A stretch of DNA of 64,000 nt from Centroscyllium fabricii (taxonomy: Eukaryota), in contig JBNRSN020000003.1 of the NCBI GenBank assembly GCA_051313645.2, positions 497,674,001-497,738,000 on the forward strand, read 5' to 3'. Each line of letters starts with the position of its first letter. Position 1 is the stretch's first letter. Shown here piece after piece: positions 5,190 through 64,000 of the stretch. The notes below the pieces were generated by a model. The model saw only the letters and a program-made list of their open reading frames with translations. It searched no databases and was not told the DNA's origin. Position numbers and translations under genes: made by a program.

Positions 5190-6865
5190 TCATAGAATCA
5201 TAGAAATTTTACAGTGCGGATAAGGGCCATTCGGCCCATCCAGTCCGCACCGGCCCAGAAAAACTCCTCACTGTACTAACCCCAGTTGCCCGCACCTGGC
5301 CCATAACCCTGTATGTTATGGTCCTTCATGTGCTGGTCCAAGTATTTTTTAAATGTTGTGATGGTTCCTGCCTCCACCACCCTCACAGGCAGGGAGTTCC
5401 AGTCTTCCACCACCCTCTGGGTAAAGAAATTTCTCCTTACCTCCCCCCTAAACCTCCCCCCCCTGATCTTGAATCTATGTCCCCTAGTGCTTGACTCTCC
5501 CACCAGGGGAAACAATGCACCTTTGTCTACCCTATCGTGTCCCCTCATGATCTTGTACACCTCAATCATGTCACCCCTCCACCTTCTCTTCTCCAAGGCA
5601 AACAACCCCAGCCTGTCCAGCCTTTCCTCGTAGCACAGGTCCCCCAGACCAGGTATCATCCTGGTAAACCTTCTCTGCACCCTCTCCAGGGCAGCCACAT
5701 CCTTCCTGTAGTGCGGTGACCAGAACTGCACACAGTACTCCAGCTGAGGTCTCACCAGTGTGTTATACAAGTTTAACATTACCTCCCTACTTTTGTATAC
5801 TATGCCCTGGTTAATAAAGGCGAGAATTCCGTATGCCTTCTTAACTACCTTGTTAACGTGTCCAGCAACCTTCAGGGAGCTGTGCACCTGTACCCCCAGG
5901 TCCCTCTGTTCCTCGGTCCTATTTAACGTTTTGTTGTTCATGGTATATTCCCTTACCCCATTTGGTCTACCGAATTGTATGACCTCGCATTTCTCTGGGT
6001 TGAACTCCATTTGCCATTTTTCTGCCCAATTAACCATTATATCTATATCCTCCTGAAGCCCCTTACTATCCTCATCGTTGTTTACCACCCTTCCGATTTT
6101 CGTATCATCAGCGAATTTGCTGATCGTACCCCCTACTCCCATATCCAAATCGTTGATGTATACTAGAAACAGTAAGGGTCCCAAAACCGATCCTTGGGGG
6201 ACGCCACTGGTTACTGGTTTCCAGTCACAGAAGCAGCCCTCTACCATTACCCTTTGTCTCCTATCCCCCAGCCAATTTTCGATCCACTGTGCCAAGTTAC
6301 CCTGTATCCCGTGCGCTCTAACCTTTGTTATTAGTCTCCTATGTGGGACTTTATCAAAAGCTTTGCTAAAGTCCATATACACTACGTCCACAGTACTCCC
6401 TTCATCCACCCTCTTTGTTACCTCCTCAAAGAATTCCAACAAATTGGTCAGGCACGACTTACCTTTGACGAAGCCATGCTGACTGTCTCTTATTAGACCT
6501 TGGTTGTCCAAATGCGAACTGATTTTATCCCTCAGAATTTTTTCCATTACTTTCCCCACTACAGATGTAAGACTGATTGGCCTGTAGTTGCCCGGTTTGT
6601 CCCTACTACCCTTTTTAAACAGGGGTACTACATTAGCCGTTCTCCAGTCCTCAGGTACATCCCCTGACGCGAGAGAGGTCCTGAAGATTTGAGACAGGGG
6701 ACCCGCAAGCTCCTCCCTGGCCTCGAACAGCAGCCTGGGGAACATTGCGTCCGGCCCTGGTGATTTGTCCACCTTTAAGCCTCCCAAGATTTCTAGAACT
6801 TCTTCCCTTGTAATGGTAATATCCTCAATTACCCCCCCTACATTCTGTCCGATTTCGATGTCATG
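5190..6865 (-). mobile_element. 5'-truncated CR1 LINE with uninterrupted RT reading frame
   Basis: ORF 6787-5276 (503 aa) with KSPGPD, NYRPISLTS, DFSKAFD, GVPQGSVLGPLLF, FADD motifs. 3' tail (TTCTATGA)n seen as catagaatcatagaa at ~5191-5205. Confidence 0.95.
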
Positions 6866-7211
6866 AATATGTCATGAACTTTCATTATTAGCAATATAGA
6901 TACAAAGGCAAATAGAAAGTATCACCAAAAGATACAGTTATGCTGCCATTTTAACATAACTGCATCTTTTAGTGATACTTTCTATTTGCCTTTGTGGTTT
7001 GAGATGCATATACCTATAATTGACAACATAACTTGGCAATCAGATCCTAACCAGGCTCCGAAGTGCACTAAAGCCAAGCGATGTTAAATCCCTGCCAAGA
7101 GACCATTTCACACTCATTTGAGTTTACACGTGGTGCATTATAACTCCAGCCAGAGCAAAGCTGCACTTTTTTAAATGTCCAGGTGATCCCATTTACTTTT
7201 TGATGTTTTTA

Positions 7212-55255: not shown

Positions 55256-56486
55256 TATTTTAAATTTAGGAAGCTAACTCATCGAGGGCGATCTCCTGGA
55301 ATTCAAGCAAAACAACTACCAGTATAAAGTTTATTTGTTATTGCACTTAGTTAGATGCAAGGACCACGAGTTACTGAAGTACAGGTTTCCACAGCTGACA
55401 GAAATCCCAAAGTAAAATCCCTCAATTGGGATACATTATCACAGCACACATTTAGAGCGTAGAAATCAGAGGTTTTATTGCATTAAATAAACAAATGACT
55501 GGATATGATTGTTGTATTGTGGCACTGAATTGATAGTATAAACCGAGAATTGGATAACATTTGACATTTATTAAATACACATTATAGCTTACACATGTGT
55601 AACATTGATGTTTTCCAATGTCATCCTGAGAGAGGATATTCTCCTTGGATAATAGACATGAAGAGGTGAAGTTGGCAGAAAAATGAAAGAATCCAGTATA
55701 TGTTCACCCATTCCTCTTTTCTGTAAGTGAACATCTTGTACTCTATAATTAGGTTTTCAGGATTTTGATGTTTTTTGAGGTTTGGGTATTATTTGAGTGA
55801 TATTTCACTTTCATCAAATTTGGTGTTTTTTCAATGTAAAAATTGTGTTTAAGAAAGTTTCACTCATAATCATTCTATTGATGAACTTTTTTTAGTAAAA
55901 CAGTACGAGAGTAAAAGGATAAAACAGTAGCTCTATCTACATCTTATTAAAATGAGGCATTTGTCGCAAACTGAGCTTGTAATAAATCATTTCAGTGTTT
56001 CCTTGGACATTCTTGCTCTCTCTTTCTGACCTGCAATGGTTTTCATCTCCGAGATCAGCTTTTCAACATTGGCACTTGACAACGACAAGGCCAAGATGGC
56101 AAAAACGCAGTCTGATAATTCAGGCCACGAATAATGCTTCCCTCACCAGAACCTGAAGGCCATTGTTTGCGGGGATGGGCTCAATCAGCAAACTATATAC
56201 ATATCATGCCAGAGGCATTAATAGCATGAAAAATAAACATGTGGGCCGTGATTTTATCGTTGGTGGCGGGTTGGGTGCGGGTCAGGTGGTCGGCGGGTTC
56301 TCGTCCCGTCGCCGCTTTCAGGCGGTCAGAAATTGCAATTTTGCCTTAATTGCTCCATTGAATTACTATGTGCGCACTACCCGGCCCAATTAGTGGTTTC
56401 AGGTCTGCAGCGTGCCTCGGCAGACGTCTGTGAGCCAGCTGCATGTAAGGGGCCCATGCAGCCTTGTTTCATTCTCTTATGATTTG

Positions 56487-59290
56487 ATGGTGGATTTCGT
56501 GTTGCCGACTGCTCCCGTGACTGCTGCAAGTGCCAAGGCCTCCCCCGGCTTTGATGATGACCCCCTCAATGCTCTTGTGGATGGAGGGTGCAAGGAGGTA
56601 CTATTCCCATCCTCTGGACAGAGGAAGCCTCCTCAGCAAAGCAAAGCAGCCTGGCTGCAAATTGCTCAGAAGGTCAGCTCCAGATCGTTGTATACTCGCT
56701 CCTGGGTCCAGTGCAAGAGAAGGTTCAATGACCTGGTACGCTTAGGAAAAGTGAGTATAACATCACACTTATCCTCAATCTGCTCCCCATCTCCTTTCAT
56801 CACCAACACTCTGCATTATCAACCTACTCCTGCACATTCCACTTTACCCTTACTTCCCTTGCACCCTTAACCATCCCTCTCACTCTATGTACACAATCAC
56901 TTCACTATTCCACTACGTTGCCCTCACATTCGCTATCACTGTTATGCAATGCCAACAACTAACAACACACAGGGAAGGCCCTTGGTGTTGGCACCTCACT
57001 CCATCTTTGTCTCCTTCTAAGCATCTATGTTATGGATTCTCTACACTCACTCCATCATTCTCATTCAAAACATCACTTGTGTCCCTCATTGCAGGAAAAG
57101 AGAGACCACAATAAGAGGGAGAGGGCTAGGACAGGAGGAGGGCCACCTTCTATTTCCCATATGACCAATGCTGAGGAGGTTGCACTCGAAATAATCAGAG
57201 TTGATGAGGATCTGCAAGTGGGGGGACAGTCGGATGGGCGCAGCAGAGCAAGCTGGTGACAGAATAGATTTGTATCTCTCTCATTTAGATTGCATGAGTG
57301 ACTGACATGACATCTGATACTCATACAGATTGACTTATGATCACCTGCACAATTCCATATTCCTGCTACGTTAATATCACATGCCTAACTCATGCCTTTA
57401 CTCCCCCACAGGACCAACGAGAGCCCCCCTCCTGACTGTCCAGGAGGAAGAGCCTAAAGACTCCTCAGAGGAAGCTGCAACCTCTGAGGGCGCAGCGTCA
57501 GCAGCATTAAGTGCACCCAGCACCAGCGCAGATACAGGTTGAGCACCGTTAATCAGGCAACCGAAAAGCCGGCAACTTCAGTCGTCCGGCACAAATCGCC
57601 CCGACTGCCCTGCGCATGCGCAAAATGGCCGCCGCGATCGAGGCTTCGGCGAATGAACTGTGCATGCGCTCGCCGTTCGGCGGTGCATGCGCAGATCATT
57701 CACTGAAGCCTCGATCGCGGCGCCCATTTTGCGCATGCGCAGGGCAGTCAGGGCGAACAGACAGGAGAGGGCAGGAGAGAGAGCGCAGCAGAGCCCACTC
57801 CAGCCTTTGATCCCGGCACAATCACACTCACCGTCCCGATGGCTTCAGGAGACGCCGACCCCATGGAAGGCAGCAGCGACTCGGACTCGGGAGGCCGAGA
57901 GCTCCGGCGCCTTGGAGTCACTGGGATACGAGGAGGAGAAGGAGGAGGCCTTCTCCGACCTGTCGGATGAGGAGCAGATACCCCACATCAGTGTTTACCG
58001 TGCACCCTCAACCACGCTTGAAACGGGGACAGGTCCCGCCTAGCTTGCTTTGATTGGGGGGGGGGGTGGCAGGAGGTTTGTGATTGGTGGAATGGCCTGT
58101 CAATCCCGTGGCTGGGGGGGGGGGGGGGGAGAGGAGCCTTGTGATTGGTGAAGCAGCCTGTAAATCCTGCGGCTAGGGTGCCAGGAGGCTTGTGATTGGT
58201 GGAGCAGCCTGTCAATCCTGTGGCAAGGAGAGGGAGGCGATTTTGTGATTGCAATGTTATGCGCATGCGCGTGGCCATTTTGAATGGTGCGCGCATGCGC
58301 ACTGGCCAACTTCATTCTTCCGGTTTTTTCGCAAAACCGGCCTGGGCCTAGTCCCGCCCGTGCCGGTATAACGGTGCTCAACCTGGATGCACACCTCGGT
58401 GGGACCTTCGTAAGATAGAGTAGTATTGTCACCTGGTGTATCACAGCTCACAAGTGAGCATCAGCAGATGGTGGAGACAGGGACAACAGTGGAGAGTCCT
58501 CGTGAGAGGCTGCAGGTTGCTCCCAGCTCTGCTCAGCTGCATGTGGATCCTGTGCCTCTGGGCCATCCAGAAAGAGAGTGGTGCTGGAACTCCAGGACCA
58601 AGTGCAAGAGTCTCTGGCAGGTTTTGCATCCAGGGTTACTGCGAGTGTGGAGAGGATGGAGGAATCCATGTCTAACATGAGCAGTGCCTTTGTGGAGGCA
58701 ATGGCACATGAATGCACCACCACGGAAAGGATGGCTGTGGTCATGGAGGAGATAAGTCACCAGAGTCAGTAAAACATGGTGAATGTTCAAAATAGATTGA
58801 CATCTCTGGAGGAGCAATGGGCAGCTATTGAGCAGAGAAACCACAGCTTCATGGAAGTCCTTTTGAGAAGGACTGCCAGGTCAGATACGGGTCCTCATGG
58901 CCCGCCTGATGTACAGCAAGGTGCTGTCCAGCCACTTGCTGGCACTGAAGTGGGCCTGACCCATGAGAAGGATGTTGGTGGCAGGCAACAAGGAAGGGTG
59001 GACTCCTCTCTAAGACCTCACACTCCCATTCCACTGCGTAGCCCTCAGTCAGAGCTCCACCAGAGTCCTCACCCAACTGAGATGGGCATCTCAGCCCCTG
59101 CACAGCTAAAGGAGGAGCAGACTGTTGCCGAGCAACTCACAGGCTCGCAACCCCAGAGGATGCCCGGCAAAGGTGTTGAAGCAGGAGCAGCATGAAAGTG
59201 AGCAAGGTGCCTCCACACCTGCTGAAGCCACAGGGGAAGCACTACGTAGAAGCACGCATAAGAGGAAGATAAAGCACAAGGATAGTCACT
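56487..59290 (+). pseudogene. Harbinger Myb/SANT-like DNA-binding accessory gene (spliced, disrupted)
   Basis: Exon ~56487-56750 (PGFDDDPLNALVDG...AAWLQIAQKVSSRSLYTRSWVQCKRRFNDL; donor GTGAGT). Exon 57095-57255 (EKRDHNKRERARTGGGPP). Exon from 57412 is interrupted by a MITE and has frameshifts. Confidence 0.8.
57535..58385. mobile_element. pogo/Tigger-like MITE nested in the Harbinger Myb gene
   Basis: TA|CAGGTTGAGCACCGTTA ... TAACGGTGCTCAACCTG|GA: same TIR family as 54908-55255, with the right TA degraded. Confidence 0.8.
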
Positions 59291-59548
59291 TGGATGTTCT
59301 GTTCTGTTGTCTTTTGTTGTGTTTAATATTTGGCATTGTCATCCTTTTGTGCATGTATTAAACAGAAGTGATGGCAAACAGCTGAAGTTCTGGCCTCTGT
59401 GTTCTGGGAAATAGAAGTTCCACATTGAGGGCTCAGGGCGATTTGTTTTTGTATTGATGGTGGTGAGAGTGACAGGAACCCACAGGTTCTTGTACATTGT
59501 GTCTGGTGTGATAAGAAGGTGCCAGCCACATGTGTTTGATTTGTCTAC

Positions 59549-60754
59549 CTAAGTGAATCTGGCAAAGATTAGTGCATCCCTTGCATCACGGGCAGCAATG
59601 TGCTCGTGTGCTGCTGGAGCTGGCTCATCTGCCTCCACAAGGTCTTCCTCCTCCTCCTCATCTGAGGAGGCTATGCACTGAGCCACTTGTTCCTCAGGTA
59701 GCTGCAAGCCACGATGCTGTGCAATGTTGTGCAGTGCACAGCAAACCACGATGATTCTGGATACCCTGGCTGCTGAGTACTGTAGGGCTCCACCTGATCA
59801 GTCAAGACATCTGAATTGCATTTTGAACAAGCTGATGGTTTGCTTGATGATGGCTCTGGTGGAAATGTGGCTGACATTGTAGCGCTCCTCTGCTTCATTC
59901 GATGGCCTCCTCAGTGGCGTCATTAGCCACGCCTTCAGGGGATAGACCTTGATTCCAAGTAGCCATCCGGAAAGTTGGGTTGGCGGATTGAAGAGCGGAG
60001 GCACACTAGACTGTCGCAGGATGAACGAGTCATGGCAACTGCCAAGGTACGTTGTGCAAAAATGTATAATGTTCTTCCTGTGGTTACACACCAACTGGAT
60101 GTTATGCGAGTGGAAGCCCTTGCGATCGACAAAAACAGCTGGGTTGTGATGGGGCGCCCTATGTGTGCAGTTTACAATGCCCTGCACCCTTGGCAAGCTT
60201 GCCAGCTTTGCAAAGCCAACTGCACATGCGGTTACACTTGCTTCATCCATGGAAAACTGGATGTAATTGTGCACCTTTGCAATGAGGGCATCAGTAACCT
60301 GCATGATGCACGTGTGTGCAGCTGACTGGGAGATGCCGCTGATGTCTTCAGATGAGCCCTGCAAGGATCCTGAAGCAAAAATTTGAGGGCGGTGGTGACT
60401 TTGACATCCACTGGTAAGGACTGTCCACCCACTCCTCTGGGCTCCAGGTGTTGGTGCAGCATTGCGCAGATGTCAGCGACTACCTCTCGCGGAAGTCTCA
60501 GCCTCCTTTGGCACTGCTGCTCAGTCATGTTGAGGAAGGTCATCCTCGGCCTGTAAACCCTGTGCTGGGGGGTATCTCCTGTGGCGAGGTGCAGCCCTGC
60601 GCTGATGCCCTCTGCTCTGCGCGTCATCAGGTGGGTGAGGAGGAGGTTGGCGTTCCTGTTGTTGCTGCTGCTGTTGTGCCTGGTTCTGCTGCTATCAGGG
60701 CTGCTCTTCCTCCGGATCTGACGACCAGGATGAAAGGGTATAAATGGTTCCCAT
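59549..60754 (-). pseudogene. Harbinger (HARBI1-like) DDE transposase, inactivated
   Basis: Fragments [94 protein letters not shown] across several frames. Catalytic acidic residues appear mutated. Confidence 0.88.
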
Positions 60755-61940
60755 GCTGCTGGTAGATATGTCAGTTGAGGAATAGAAGTTATAAGTGCTC
60801 AGTCAATGTGGGGAGAGGATTTTCCCAGGAGGTCACAGTGGAGATGGATCTCAGCTTAAACACTTACAAGATTAGTAGACCTGCAAAAAGTTTTGCAAAA
60901 CCTGAAAAAACAAAGTTATGCCATCTGTAAGTGAGCCTTGTTGAGAGCTTTGTTTTTGTACTGGAGCTGCAGCTGTCAAGAAGGCAGCCACTTGGTGAAC
61001 TGGGTACAATCAGCTGGCGTGGTTTGGGAACGGCGTGGAACACACAGAAAATGTGCAAAAATCGAAAACCGCTGTTAAAATAGGATTATCCAGACAGTTA
61101 ACAAGCTGTTAACTGCCTTAAGGGCCTCTCCCACCCCTTGGTGGCAGGGCCGATCGGGACTCACAGGGCCGGCATTTGGCAAAGTGGCATGGAGGCGGGA
61201 TCGGAACCCGCCATCAATCAAAGTGATTTTACCCTTTGACCCGCCTCCAAACCTGCCCTCTCAATGCCAATAAAATCGCGGCCGTGGTCTTTAGAGCTGA
61301 AGAGAATGCACTGTTTCTATATGGGTCAATGACTAGTACTGAATACCAGAGCAATGCTTTATCCACTTCAAAAGGCATTGTAGGTGTGATATTTCATGAC
61401 AGTGATGCTTGTCATTTGTCATGCTTGGCGTCCAAAAGAACCCTAAAGCTAGTCCCAGCACAAACACAGAAAGCTCTTTCCCTCAAGTGGAATTCTAGCA
61501 TCATCCCAACTATATTGAATACCTCTGGCCTTTTTGTTATTTCCATGACAGAAGACATATTCTCACTTAGAAATTGCAATATAAAATAAATCACTTTTCT
61601 CTTCACTTCACTGTCACCATGGTTACATAAACCTTCACATTTCTTTCCAGTTGCTTCTTCACTAGACAAAATGTACGTGAAGGAGTGCCACATTGCAAGC
61701 AACAGGTCAACTGCTGCAATCACTGAATGTTGTTGTTTCTATAACACAGTTATGATGACTCTTAGCTTAATTCTCCTTTGATGGTAAACTGTAAAATATT
61801 TTTGTTTCAGTCAATGTGTATACTTAAATAAAGTATCTACACAAGTGGGCGATGCAATGGATTAGACATTGGCTTTTCACCTCTGCAACTTGTCAAAATA
61901 AGAAGAAAGTCTTTCCTGTCCGTTGGCTGTAAGTGTTGTG

Positions 61941-64000
61941 TGTCACAGGGTGCCTTTCCCTTTAAGGTTTCAAGACAGCTTGATTGTGTGCAGCACACCT
62001 GTTTTGAGGACTTGTTCCCCTGGTTATTCTATTATCATATCAATTATCGGTTTCACATGCCTGTGTGTCCCTGTTATCTTTGCCTGCAGCTTATTGGCTA
62101 ACACGAAATGATCTGTTTGCCGGTTTGGCTCATAAGCTGGAGGTCTTGACCAGGCTGGTGCGGGATCATTAGATAGATTCATTAGATTGAATTGACTGTC
62201 TTCAAACTACAGGAAGAGTTGGTTGCTGTTCTGAGCTGCTGGAGGGGCAATGGGTTTGGGAGTTCCATTGCTCAGCCTGGACATTGCACTCTGCTACCTG
62301 AAGCTCAGGCTTGGACATTCATCTGTTGAGTAAGGGCGTTCCCCTGCTAGTGGATCAGGTATTCTCACTCCCATGAACCCCGTTGGGTTAAGTCCCCGCG
62401 GAAGAGCGGATGATGAAATGAGATCCAGTATCTACTCCTTGGACATTTGGTCATTATCACCCAACCTCAGGTTTGGACGTTGCAGTAGGGTATGTGAGGA
62501 GTCTCAAGGATTGAGGATGGATTCTCCTTCTGAAGACTCTGAAGAGATGGGTTCCAGCTGTAGGGCGGACTCTGGGAGAGTTCTATTACTTATCCAGGAC
62601 ATTGCTCGCACCCACCTGTATTCAGGTTTTGGACAAGGATTTCTCTACTCTATGACACGCTTTGTTGCGTAGCATTCCACACAACTTTGGGAAGTTTGGT
62701 ACCAGTTCCAAAAGGAACTTGTTTTCTATTTCTATCTCGTTATTTTGCAACTGTAATAAGCTGGTGCCAGTTTTCTATCGAAGACTTGTTTAGATGTATA
62801 TATATTTGTGTATGTGTGAATGCATTTATTAGGTTTTCGGTAATTTGTATATATTAAAGGAGTTTAGCTCAAGAAAGCCATTTCAGTGTCTTTGCATTTG
62901 GGCGCCACCACACTCCGTTACAGAATGATCCCGCCAGATTTGGGGCCCAGCAGACACTGAAGCGTCTAGCACTCCTTAAATTGCTTTATTCCTGGAGGAC
63001 GGTTGGTCCCTCCTCCGCACCCCTCCACCCACCCTATTCCGGCTTTTTGGGTATTTGGGCCGTCAGCAGTCGTCCCTTTAAGGGGGGGGTTCTGTCACAG
63101 GGTGCCTTTCCCTTTAAGGATTCAAGACAGCTAGGTTGTGTGCAGCACACCTGTTTTGAAGACTTGTTCCCCTTGTTATTCTATTATTATATCAATTATC
63201 GGTTTCACATGCCTGTGTGTTCCTGGTTCTCATTGCCTGCAGCTTATTGGCTAACACTAAAATATCTGTTTGCCGGTTTGGCTCATAAGCTGGAGGTTTT
63301 GACCAGGCAGGGGCGGGATCATTGGATTCATTAGACTTTCTACAAACTACTGGAAGAAGTGGTTACTGTTCTGAGCTGCTGGAGAGGCTATGGGTTTGGG
63401 CTTTCCCCTGCCCTGTGGAGGACGTATTCTCTTTGGGAAACTCGGCTAGAGTGAGACTAGCTGTGGCAGCTAGAGTGAGACTAGCTGTGGAGTGGACTTC
63501 AGAGAACTACAATTGTCATCATTCTGGACATTGCGTTCTGCCACCTGAAGCTCAGGTTTGGACATTCATCTGTTAAGTAAGGGCATTCCCCTGCTAGTGG
63601 ATCAGGTATTCTCTTCCTCAGAAGACTCCGTTGGAGTGAGTCTCGACCGCAGGGCGAACTCGGAAGAGATCCAGAATCTACTCCTTGGACATTTGGTCGT
63701 TATCACCCGAACTGAGGTTTGGACGTTTCAGTAGGGTATGTGAGGAGTCTCAATGTTTAAGGATGGATTCTCTCCTTCTGAAGACTCTGAAGAGATGGGT
63801 TCCAGCTGTAAGGCGGACTCTGGGAGAGTTCCATTACTTATCCAGGACATTGCTCGCACCCACCTGTACTTCAGGCTTGGACATTTATTTCTCTACTCAA
63901 TGATGCACTTGGCTGTGTAGCATTCCACACAACTTTGGGAAGTTTGGTACCAGTTCTAAAGGGACTTGTTTTCTATTTCTATCTTTGTATTTTGCAACTG
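61941..64000 (+). mobile_element. Miniature / internally deleted Ty3-gypsy (Tf1/sushi-like) LTR retroelement; 3' LTR runs off the window
   Basis: 5' LTR 61941-62922 (TGTCAC...GTTACA). 170-bp internal region with PBS-position AATGATCCCGCC and PPT AAGGGGGGGG (63080-63089). 3' LTR starts TGTCACAGGGTGCC at 63093. Confidence 0.85.

What the first reader, a model, noticed from the sequence alone, without database searches (positions are those of the whole stretch)
61941..64000. Miniature LTR element with a self-complementary (tRNA-independent) primer-binding site
Seen: directly after the 5' LTR, AATGATCCCGCC (62924-62935) is the exact reverse complement of GGCGGGATCATT in the 3' LTR (63312-63323) and of GCGGGATCATT in the 5' LTR (62160-62170). 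That site lies ~30 nt downstream of a CATAAG motif. The internal region is only 170 bp: PBS, a gag-start-like remnant (GPADTEA) and a PPT. Known: Tf1/sushi-group elements prime reverse transcription by pairing the first ~11 nt of the transcript with the PBS. Inference: this is a TRIM-like non-autonomous self-priming element, with the TSS predicted at ~62159.
Basis: partly seen in the sequence, partly recalled or inferred. Interest (0 to 1): 0.7.

Follow-up and report, generated by a model that had tools for sequence, protein, structure and literature searches.

The report
Gene-less self-priming LTR retrotransposon family
This 2.2-kb gene-less jumping element, present in thousands of young copies in a 7-gigabase genome, has a primer site that matches its own predicted RNA start instead of a tRNA, so it likely starts copying itself the way yeast Tf1 does, and its relatives show what looks like a stepwise loss of everything except the RNA signals this would need.

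Summary
Observation confirmed. The element has two ~1-kb LTRs around a 170-bp core and a 6-bp target duplication. It is a family: 2,708 exact LTR/primer-site junctions, 45 of 45 sampled with a short core, LTR pairs 97.8-99.9% identical. The 11-nt primer site (PBS) has no tRNA-type TGG. It is complementary to a site 29 nt behind a TATA-like box, and five family-level PBS variants each have their own perfect complement, two of the changes arising inside the non-coding lineage. The 'gag remnant' is better read as one arm of a ~20-bp U5-leader RNA stem. Relatives with shared breakpoints form a series: 4.5 kb gag-pol-chromodomain, 2 kb, 712, 368, 168 bp. No full-length element with this LTR or PBS was found. 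The window copy is a chimera of two subfamilies. It is too long for a strict TRIM. Self-priming is known for Tf1/sushi elements; I found no paper on a non-coding self-primed family. The start site and cleavage are untested (no RNA data). The scan noted self-priming signatures before on other DNA (BEL/Pao, copia), not on this family. Verdict: real; a new variant of a known kind; moderate interest.

The parts
61935..61940 (.). Left target-site duplication GTTGTG; right copy lies just beyond the window (equivalent 64171-64176)
61941..62922 (+). 5' LTR, 982 bp, TG...CA, subfamily A (85 of 86 diagnostic sites)
62131..62136 (+). TATA-like box CATAAG, 29 nt before the primer site; TATAAG/TATAAA/TATTAG at the same distance in coding relatives
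   Evidence: function inferred
62160..62170 (+). Predicted first 11 nt of the RNA = predicted self-primer, exact complement of the PBS
   Evidence: start site not measured
62853..62858 (+). ATTAAA, candidate polyadenylation signal 70 nt before the LTR end, implying an R region of about 700 nt
   Evidence: aligned with AATAAA of coding relatives; function inferred
62881..62907 (+). U5 arm of the predicted U5-leader stem (this copy has a private mismatch at 62904)
62924..62934 (+). Primer-binding site AATGATCCCGC, 1 nt after the LTR, no TGG
62941..62961 (+). Leader arm of the stem = remnant of the first gag codons, start codon lost, 2-nt deletion
62974..62995 (+). 22-nt remnant of the protease gene left between two deletion junctions (16 of 22 identical to the sister family, which matches L092 internal 1314-1335 at 22 of 22)
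62995..63079 (+). Last codons and 3' untranslated region of the parent; 62995-63092 is 75-90% identical to the 3' ends of coding relatives
63080..63089 (+). Polypurine tract AAGGGGGGGG, 3 nt before the 3' LTR
63093..64000 (+). 3' LTR, subfamily B (86 of 86 diagnostic sites); 1,078 bp, runs 170 bp past the window; carries CATAAG at 63284 and the primer-site copy at 63313-63323

Best explanation
This is one copy of a high-copy, non-coding LTR element that shares its ends, primer region and 3' end with chromodomain-bearing Tf1/sushi-type retrotransposons of the same genome, and that likely primes reverse transcription with the first 11 nt of its own RNA, using proteins likely supplied by full-length relatives. 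Proposed steps: (1) Pol II starts at 62160, 29 nt behind the TATA-like box (inferred from spacing). (2) The 5' end pairs with the PBS about 750 nt downstream (complementarity and covariation shown; pairing in vivo inferred), while U5 pairs with the former gag start and holds the PBS in a 33-nt loop, crossing the first helix as in the Tf1 'pretzel' (sequence support shown; joint formation inferred). (3) RNase H of a borrowed reverse transcriptase cuts after nt 11 (by analogy with Tf1, untested). (4) Strand transfer over the long R, plus-strand priming at the PPT, and integration with a 5-bp, sometimes 6-bp, duplication (duplications shown). The family arose by successive internal deletions (shared breakpoints shown; order inferred). 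The window copy later acquired a 5' LTR of another subfamily by recombination (chimerism shown; route inferred).
For: Family: 2,708 exact LTR-end/PBS junctions, control 0; 20,446 LTR starts; 45 of 45 junctions in 40 loci taken from the head of the list have a short core of about 160-175 bp; 34 LTR pairs are 97.8-99.9% identical, median 99.3%, and 31 of 34 have a duplication (27 of 5 bp, 4 of 6 bp). Primer: present in 42 of 45 (36 exact, 6 with one mismatch); 96% conserved across 32 LTRs against 66% on either side. In gag-bearing relatives (11,029 junctions) 30 of 30 loci hold the complement of their own PBS (22 exact, 8 with one mismatch). Five PBS types each have a perfect own complement; 5 of 11 positions differ among them. 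A tree nests the window's PBS type (support 100/99) among non-coding elements with the older PBS. U5-leader stem: 90.2% of 691 cells paired, 15 double-sided changes (0 of 500 shuffles), slid controls 29-48%; duplex -40.8 kcal/mol in 60 non-coding against -29.2 in 34 ATG-bearing sequences, shuffles -19 and -17. Parentage: gag, protease, RT, RNase H, integrase and chromodomain in a full-length relative; nested shared breakpoints.
Against: No start-site, cleavage or expression data were obtained. The third helix of the Tf1 pretzel was not found (no better than shuffles). In nested folding of whole 5' regions the primer duplex won in only 2 of 10 non-coding and 5 of 6 coding elements, because the program cannot hold both crossing helices; this is uninformative on joint formation but shows that the stem can compete. 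Stem covariation rests on 3 of 21 pairs, not more than shuffles give for that measure (406 of 500), and related sequences inflate the cell counts. 3 of 45 sampled copies lack the primer site. The helper is unidentified: 0 matches for this PBS followed by a gag start. Many copies have a weakened TATA box (CATAAG, CTTAAA). The tree is short (223 columns), includes the PBS columns and is midpoint-rooted.
Confidence: 0.85

Rival explanations
1. The element is primed by a host tRNA (3' end or half molecule), and the LTR match is incidental.
For: TRIMs are defined with a tRNA-type PBS (PMC6934838, passages). My tRNA survey was narrow: 32 genes of 2 anticodon types.
Against: No TGG until 62941, 18 nt after the LTR, inside the leader arm. 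Best 3'-end match 4 nt. The PBS changes between families together with the LTR site, which a fixed tRNA cannot explain.
Confidence: 0.02
2. The complementarity is a vestige inherited from the sushi-type parent; the short elements spread by DNA-level duplication or recombination and do not use it.
For: Solo LTRs, tandem arrays and chimeras show much DNA-level recombination.
Against: Dispersed copies with distinct 5-6-bp duplications and near-identical LTR pairs across subfamilies whose LTRs differ by 3-24% from the window's indicate integrase-made insertions after reverse transcription. Two paired PBS/primer changes map inside the non-coding lineage.
Confidence: 0.03
3. The 11-nt primer comes from the element's own 5' end but in trans, from the second RNA of a packaged dimer, since a 600-1,140-nt loop is long; or the U5-leader stem serves dimerisation or packaging (it contains the palindrome GGGCCC) more than priming.
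For: Primer-to-LTR-end distance 616-1,143 nt in non-coding copies against 261-522 in gag-bearing ones. The stem out-competes the duplex in nested folding of 8 of 10 non-coding RNAs. The third pretzel helix is absent.
Against: Tf1 is described as folding its own RNA (PMC7175516, PMC10085805, passages). Sequence alone cannot separate cis from trans. A helper's primer is unlikely: the commonest one would pair with two mismatches and one wobble.
Confidence: 0.1

Closest known systems
Tf1/Tf2/Tj1 of fission yeasts and the Tf1/sushi group of Ty3/gypsy chromoviruses (seen through passages of PMC7175516, PMC10085805, PMC4600332, PMC6317226; the Levin, Lin and Levin, and Butler et al. originals were not held or not read)
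   Same: 11-nt complement between predicted RNA start and a PBS next to the 5' LTR; a second helix between PBS-adjacent leader and LTR; parent with chromodomain integrase; LTR ends TGTCA...TTACA and polyadenylation signal near the LTR end as described for the Sushi LTR model (PMC3601003, passages).
   Different: Encodes nothing; third pretzel helix not found; R-U5 loop of 600-1,140 nt; LTRs near 1 kb against a mean of 572 in the Sushi training set; mechanism only inferred here.
TRIMs (PMC6934838 and PMC10886601, passages), including animal biv-TRIM and Helenus/LTR-11_DR
   Same: Two LTRs around a short non-coding core with PBS and PPT; 5-bp duplications; solo LTRs and LTR-core tandem arrays; origin by internal deletion.
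   Different: 2.2 kb with 1-kb LTRs against under 1 kb with 100-250-bp repeats; PBS not complementary to a tRNA. Kojima's paper states that Helenus LTRs do not pair with their PBS.
Intermediate-size (1.5-4 kb) non-autonomous LTR families and TR-GAG elements of plants (bioRxiv 10.64898/2026.03.01.708851, passages)
   Same: Falls in the unnamed 1.5-4 kb range; chimeric LTRs, tandems and solo LTRs; the 2-kb relatives keep gag and protease like TR-GAG.
   Different: 'self-prim' does not occur in that preprint's main text; here the parent is a sushi-type element and the whole deletion series is still present.

Membership tests
Tf1/sushi self-primed chromoviruses | PBS next to the 5' LTR complementary to about 11 nt in the LTR, not to a tRNA 3' end | tested here: met
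Tf1/sushi self-primed chromoviruses | That LTR site is the 5' end of the RNA | not testable with these tools
   No RNA run was listed; support is indirect: fixed 29-nt spacing to a TATA-like box
Tf1/sushi self-primed chromoviruses | RNase H cleavage between nt 11 and 12 | not testable with these tools
   needs RNA ends or an in vitro assay
Tf1/sushi self-primed chromoviruses | Three-duplex pretzel structure | tested here: inconclusive
   central duplex and U5-leader helix supported; third helix no better than shuffles
Tf1/sushi self-primed chromoviruses | gag-PR-RT-RH-IN order with a C-terminal chromodomain | tested here: not met
   The element itself encodes none; met by the full-length relative L093, to which the core is linked by shared ends and breakpoints. 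So a derivative, not an autonomous member
Tf1/sushi self-primed chromoviruses | RT phylogeny places the parent in the vertebrate (sushi) clade | not tested
   No RT tree with named references was built; the label rests on domain order, LTR motifs and priming signature
TRIM (strict definition) | Two terminal repeats, non-coding core with PBS and PPT, target duplication | tested here: met
TRIM (strict definition) | Total under 1 kb (1.5 kb in the wider definition), repeats 100-250 bp | tested here: not met
   2,230 bp; LTRs 982 and 1,078 bp; mostly 0.9-1.4 kb in the family
TRIM (strict definition) | PBS complementary to a tRNA | tested here: not met
   no TGG; covaries with the LTR
LARD | Over 4 kb with a long non-coding core | tested here: not met
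   core 170 bp
Retrozyme / Cassandra / Helenus types | Ribozyme, 5S or tRNA-like sequence in the LTR | tested here: not met
   0 Rfam matches at E up to 1 over the whole element

The most novel reading that the evidence does not exclude
A long-lived non-coding lineage that no longer shares LTR body or PBS with any autonomous partner, maintains and re-writes its own 11-nt primer/PBS pair, and has turned the former gag start into a stronger RNA stem. With its surviving intermediates it is a natural deletion map of the minimal cis signals for self-primed retrotransposition outside yeast: LTR ends, primer, PBS, U5-leader stem, 98-nt 3' segment with PPT.
Probability: 0.6. Interest if true: 0.55.

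Novelty: new variant of a known kind. Interest (0 to 1): 0.42.

Why it matters
Self-priming was demonstrated for yeast Tf1 and is described as 'implicated' in vertebrate elements (PMC4600332, passage). Here several families in one genome change PBS and primer together, including inside a lineage with no protein to constrain it, which is comparative evidence that the pairing is used. The family is short, young and abundant (about 20,000 LTRs, roughly 20 Mb or 0.3% of the assembly by my estimate), so the predicted start at LTR position 220 and the cut after nt 11 can be looked for directly in ordinary RNA-end data. It also shows that annotation tools that demand a tRNA PBS or a size under 1 kb would miss or mislabel such families. 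It is not a new mechanism.

Tried and rejected
Autonomous partner with the same PBS: 0 matches. 10 loci with a relative-type 3' end and an LTR starting TGTCAC were 9 coding-type ends and 1 sister mini element, none with the window's LTR. RNA evidence: no RNA holder listed; no evidence either way. DNA contigs of two runs (one study, possibly the source) carry the left flank/LTR junction but are too fragmented to test the chimera. tRNA survey returned only Lys and Cys genes: too narrow, so the argument rests on the missing TGG and on covariation. Third pretzel helix: not found. A conserved fold of the 3' 112 nt: weak, 1 of 16 pairs with a double change; no structure claimed. Rfam: none. ATG frames in the element (52, 99 and 55 aa): the 99-aa frame of the 5' LTR is cut to 55 aa in the 3' LTR; treated as chance. 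The pattern (395 hits) also matches intact protease genes, so it does not count the 712-bp form. Template switching as the source of the chimera: rejected, since it would give two identical mosaic LTRs, not one pure A and one pure B. Literature: searches showed no paper on a non-coding self-primed family (70 and 73 returned 0 papers); Repbase and Dfam could not be searched and may already list such families; no supplements were read.

Full report
1. The observation. The window ends in an LTR element: 5' LTR 61941-62922 (982 bp, TG...CA), core 62923-63092 (170 bp), 3' LTR from 63093. The neighbouring genome stretch shows the 3' LTR to be 1,078 bp, ending 170 bp past the window and followed by GTTGTG, the same six bases that precede the 5' LTR. 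The PBS (62924-62934) is the exact complement of 62160-62170 and of 63313-63323. CATAAG lies 29 nt before each. The exact 11-mer appeared in 2 of 20,000 dinucleotide shuffles of the LTR. The first TGG, which a tRNA's CCA end would need, is 18 nt after the LTR.

2. It is a family. The 20-nt LTR-end/PBS junction occurs 2,708 times, reversed control 0. A pattern across the window's own core junction occurs 383 times, and a degenerate LTR-start pattern 20,446 times. I fetched 40 loci from the head of the list (one contig, not chosen by core sequence). All 45 junctions in them are followed by a short core of about 160-175 bp, 86-97% identical to the window's in the 38 loci measured. Of the 40 loci, 34 gave an LTR pair: identity 97.8-99.9%, median 99.3%. 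31 of the 34 have a duplication (27 of 5 bp, 4 of 6 bp); the other three are tandem arrays whose ends I did not resolve; six loci were dropped because an end or the PPT was not delimited. Their LTRs differ from the window's 3' LTR by 3-24% plus many gaps, so several subfamilies have moved recently. Four of the 40 loci show two or three units in tandem. Of 29 other loci closest to the 5' LTR, 24 are solo LTRs, 23 of them with a duplication.

3. Relatives and the priming signature. A looser pattern (LTR end, PBS, gag start) has 11,029 hits. In 30 of 30 loci examined the LTR holds the complement of that element's own PBS (22 exact, 8 with one mismatch), and in 29 of them a TATA-like box sits at the same spacing as in the window. 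Over all junction rows, which include some loci twice, the box-to-site distance is 29 nt in 71 of 78 rows with the window's PBS type and 48 of 52 others. Five PBS types recur with a perfect own complement: AATGATCCCGC (61 rows), AACGATCTGGC (27), AACGAACTGGC (10), AACAATCCGAC (3) and AACGATCCGGC (1 row; 23 of 30 loci). Across 32 LTRs of the family the site is 96% conserved against 66% for the flanks. A full-length relative (L093) has gag, protease (weak, under the cut-off), RT, RNase H, integrase and chromodomain in one 1,449-aa frame: a chromovirus layout. One caution: plus-strand synthesis may copy the primer into the PBS (established for tRNA primers; a Tf1 paper title seen says the self-primer is not removed), so the covariation may be mechanical, not selected. 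Either way it points to the 5' end being the primer.

4. The gag remnant is probably an RNA stem. The 20-odd bases after the PBS pair with U5 (62881-62907 with 62941-62961), leaving the PBS in a 33-nt loop. On 33 sequences, 90.2% of 691 cells pair, with 15 double-sided changes (0 of 500 shuffles) and slid controls at 29-48%; but only 3 of 21 pairs carry such changes, no more than shuffles give, and relatedness inflates the counts. The duplex is stronger in non-coding elements (-40.8 kcal/mol, n = 60) than in ATG-bearing ones (-29.2, n = 34): loss of the start codon and a 2-nt deletion removed a mismatch and a bulge. This helix crosses the primer duplex, so nested folding picks one or the other (duplex in 2 of 10 non-coding and 5 of 6 coding RNAs). 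PMC10085805 (passages) describes Tf1's three-duplex 'pretzel', with two helices between PBS-adjacent and LTR sequence. I find the central duplex and one of these; the third is not supported.

5. Origin by stepwise deletion. Alignment of cores gives a nested series. Full-length: about 4.5 kb. A 1.84-1.97 kb class lacks RT, RNase H and most of integrase. A 712-bp form (L067, L224) joins core base 50 to the protease region and keeps the 2-kb class's junctions. A 368-bp form (L199) has lost the start codon. A 168-bp sister family (368 junctions) keeps bases 1-49, 22 bases of protease and the last 96. The window's core is 149 of 170 identical to that sister. A tree of the shared segments separates coding-type elements (99/99) from non-coding ones and nests the window's PBS type (100/99) among the sister elements (34 rows, one of 35 chosen loci not delimited; midpoint root). 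So two paired PBS/primer changes most likely arose after coding was lost. The order of deletions is inferred from nesting, not from a rooted test. The LTR body has diverged beyond alignment with coding relatives except at the ends and short patches. No element with this PBS and a gag start exists by pattern. The helper is therefore unknown; it is probably one or more of the full-length families that share LTR ends, stem and 3' segment.

6. This copy is a chimera. Its LTRs are 90.1% identical with 138 gap columns. At 86 sites that separate two subfamilies the 5' LTR is type A at 85 and the 3' LTR type B at 86; the core matches B-type copies at 98-100% and A-type cores at 94-95%. With one duplication on both sides, the likely routes are recombination of a B unit into a solo A LTR with the crossover in the last 50 bp, or conversion of the whole 5' LTR. 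An assembly error is not excluded (one search confirms only the left junction). The LTR divergence must not be used to date this copy.

7. Comparison and novelty. It works like Tf1 (PMC7175516, PMC4600332, PMC10085805, PMC6317226: passages only). It is a derivative, not an autonomous member, of the Tf1/sushi group; the sushi label rests on domain order, LTR motifs (PMC3601003, passages) and priming signature, with no RT tree. It fails the strict TRIM definition on size and on the tRNA PBS (PMC6934838, PMC10886601: passages) and falls in the unnamed 1.5-4 kb range (bioRxiv 10.64898/2026.03.01.708851, passages). TRIM- and LARD-labelled repeats are reported in a caecilian genome (PMC8498967, passages). 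Nine literature searches showed no report of a non-coding self-primed family, but the primary Tf1 and sushi papers, repeat databases and supplements were not seen. Earlier scan notes call this a shark genome (not tested here) and report self-priming signatures in BEL/Pao and copia elements of other genomes; a sequence look-up found nothing on this family.

8. Verdict. Real, well supported, a new variant of a known kind. Confidence in self-priming by the element's own 5' end about 0.95, in the full cis model 0.85. Interest 0.42.

Noticed in passing
L092, L094, L095, L105, L106, L107, L108 (7 of 20 loci fetched, not a random sample): A 2.5-kb class lacking RT, RNase H and most of integrase but keeping one 611-623-aa gag-protease frame (broken in L108). 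Pfam finds a chromodomain in L092 and L105, not in L094 or L106. Similar breakpoints in lineages 77-92% identical; dN/dS 0.21-0.43 over codons 1-470 among six copies. Looks like an animal counterpart of plant TR-GAG elements under purifying selection, possibly a Gag supplier.
   Followed up: partly
L115, L192-L221: Sister non-coding family (368 junctions) with the older PBS and its own complement in 23 of 30 loci; in L115 the R region is expanded by tandem units of about 62 nt.
   Followed up: partly
L122, L123, L125, L129, L133, L138, L143, L149 and others: Subfamilies with a 13-15-nt duplication of the LTR end, and one with a partial PBS duplication; both lengthen the loop that holds the PBS without breaking the stem.
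   Followed up: partly
L039:1291-3284; L080 upstream of its primer site: Two solo LTRs of different subfamilies 20 nt apart; an LTR end directly 5' of another element's predicted start site.
   Followed up: no
window 56292-61212: Inverted 22-nt arms at 56292-56313 and 61191-61212, a 72-nt hairpin at 57596-57756, three 62-nt repeats at 58064-58237 and a 224-aa frame at 59801-60472 (-); resembles a Harbinger-type DNA transposon (label recalled, not tested).
   Followed up: no
window 5279-6871 (-): 531-codon open frame resembling a CR1-type reverse transcriptase (label recalled, not tested).
   Followed up: no
window 63445-63490: A 24-nt tandem duplication inside the 3' LTR R region, and repeated TTGGACATT-like motifs (4 in the 5' LTR, 5 in the 3' LTR); the long R seems to grow by local duplication.
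   Followed up: no
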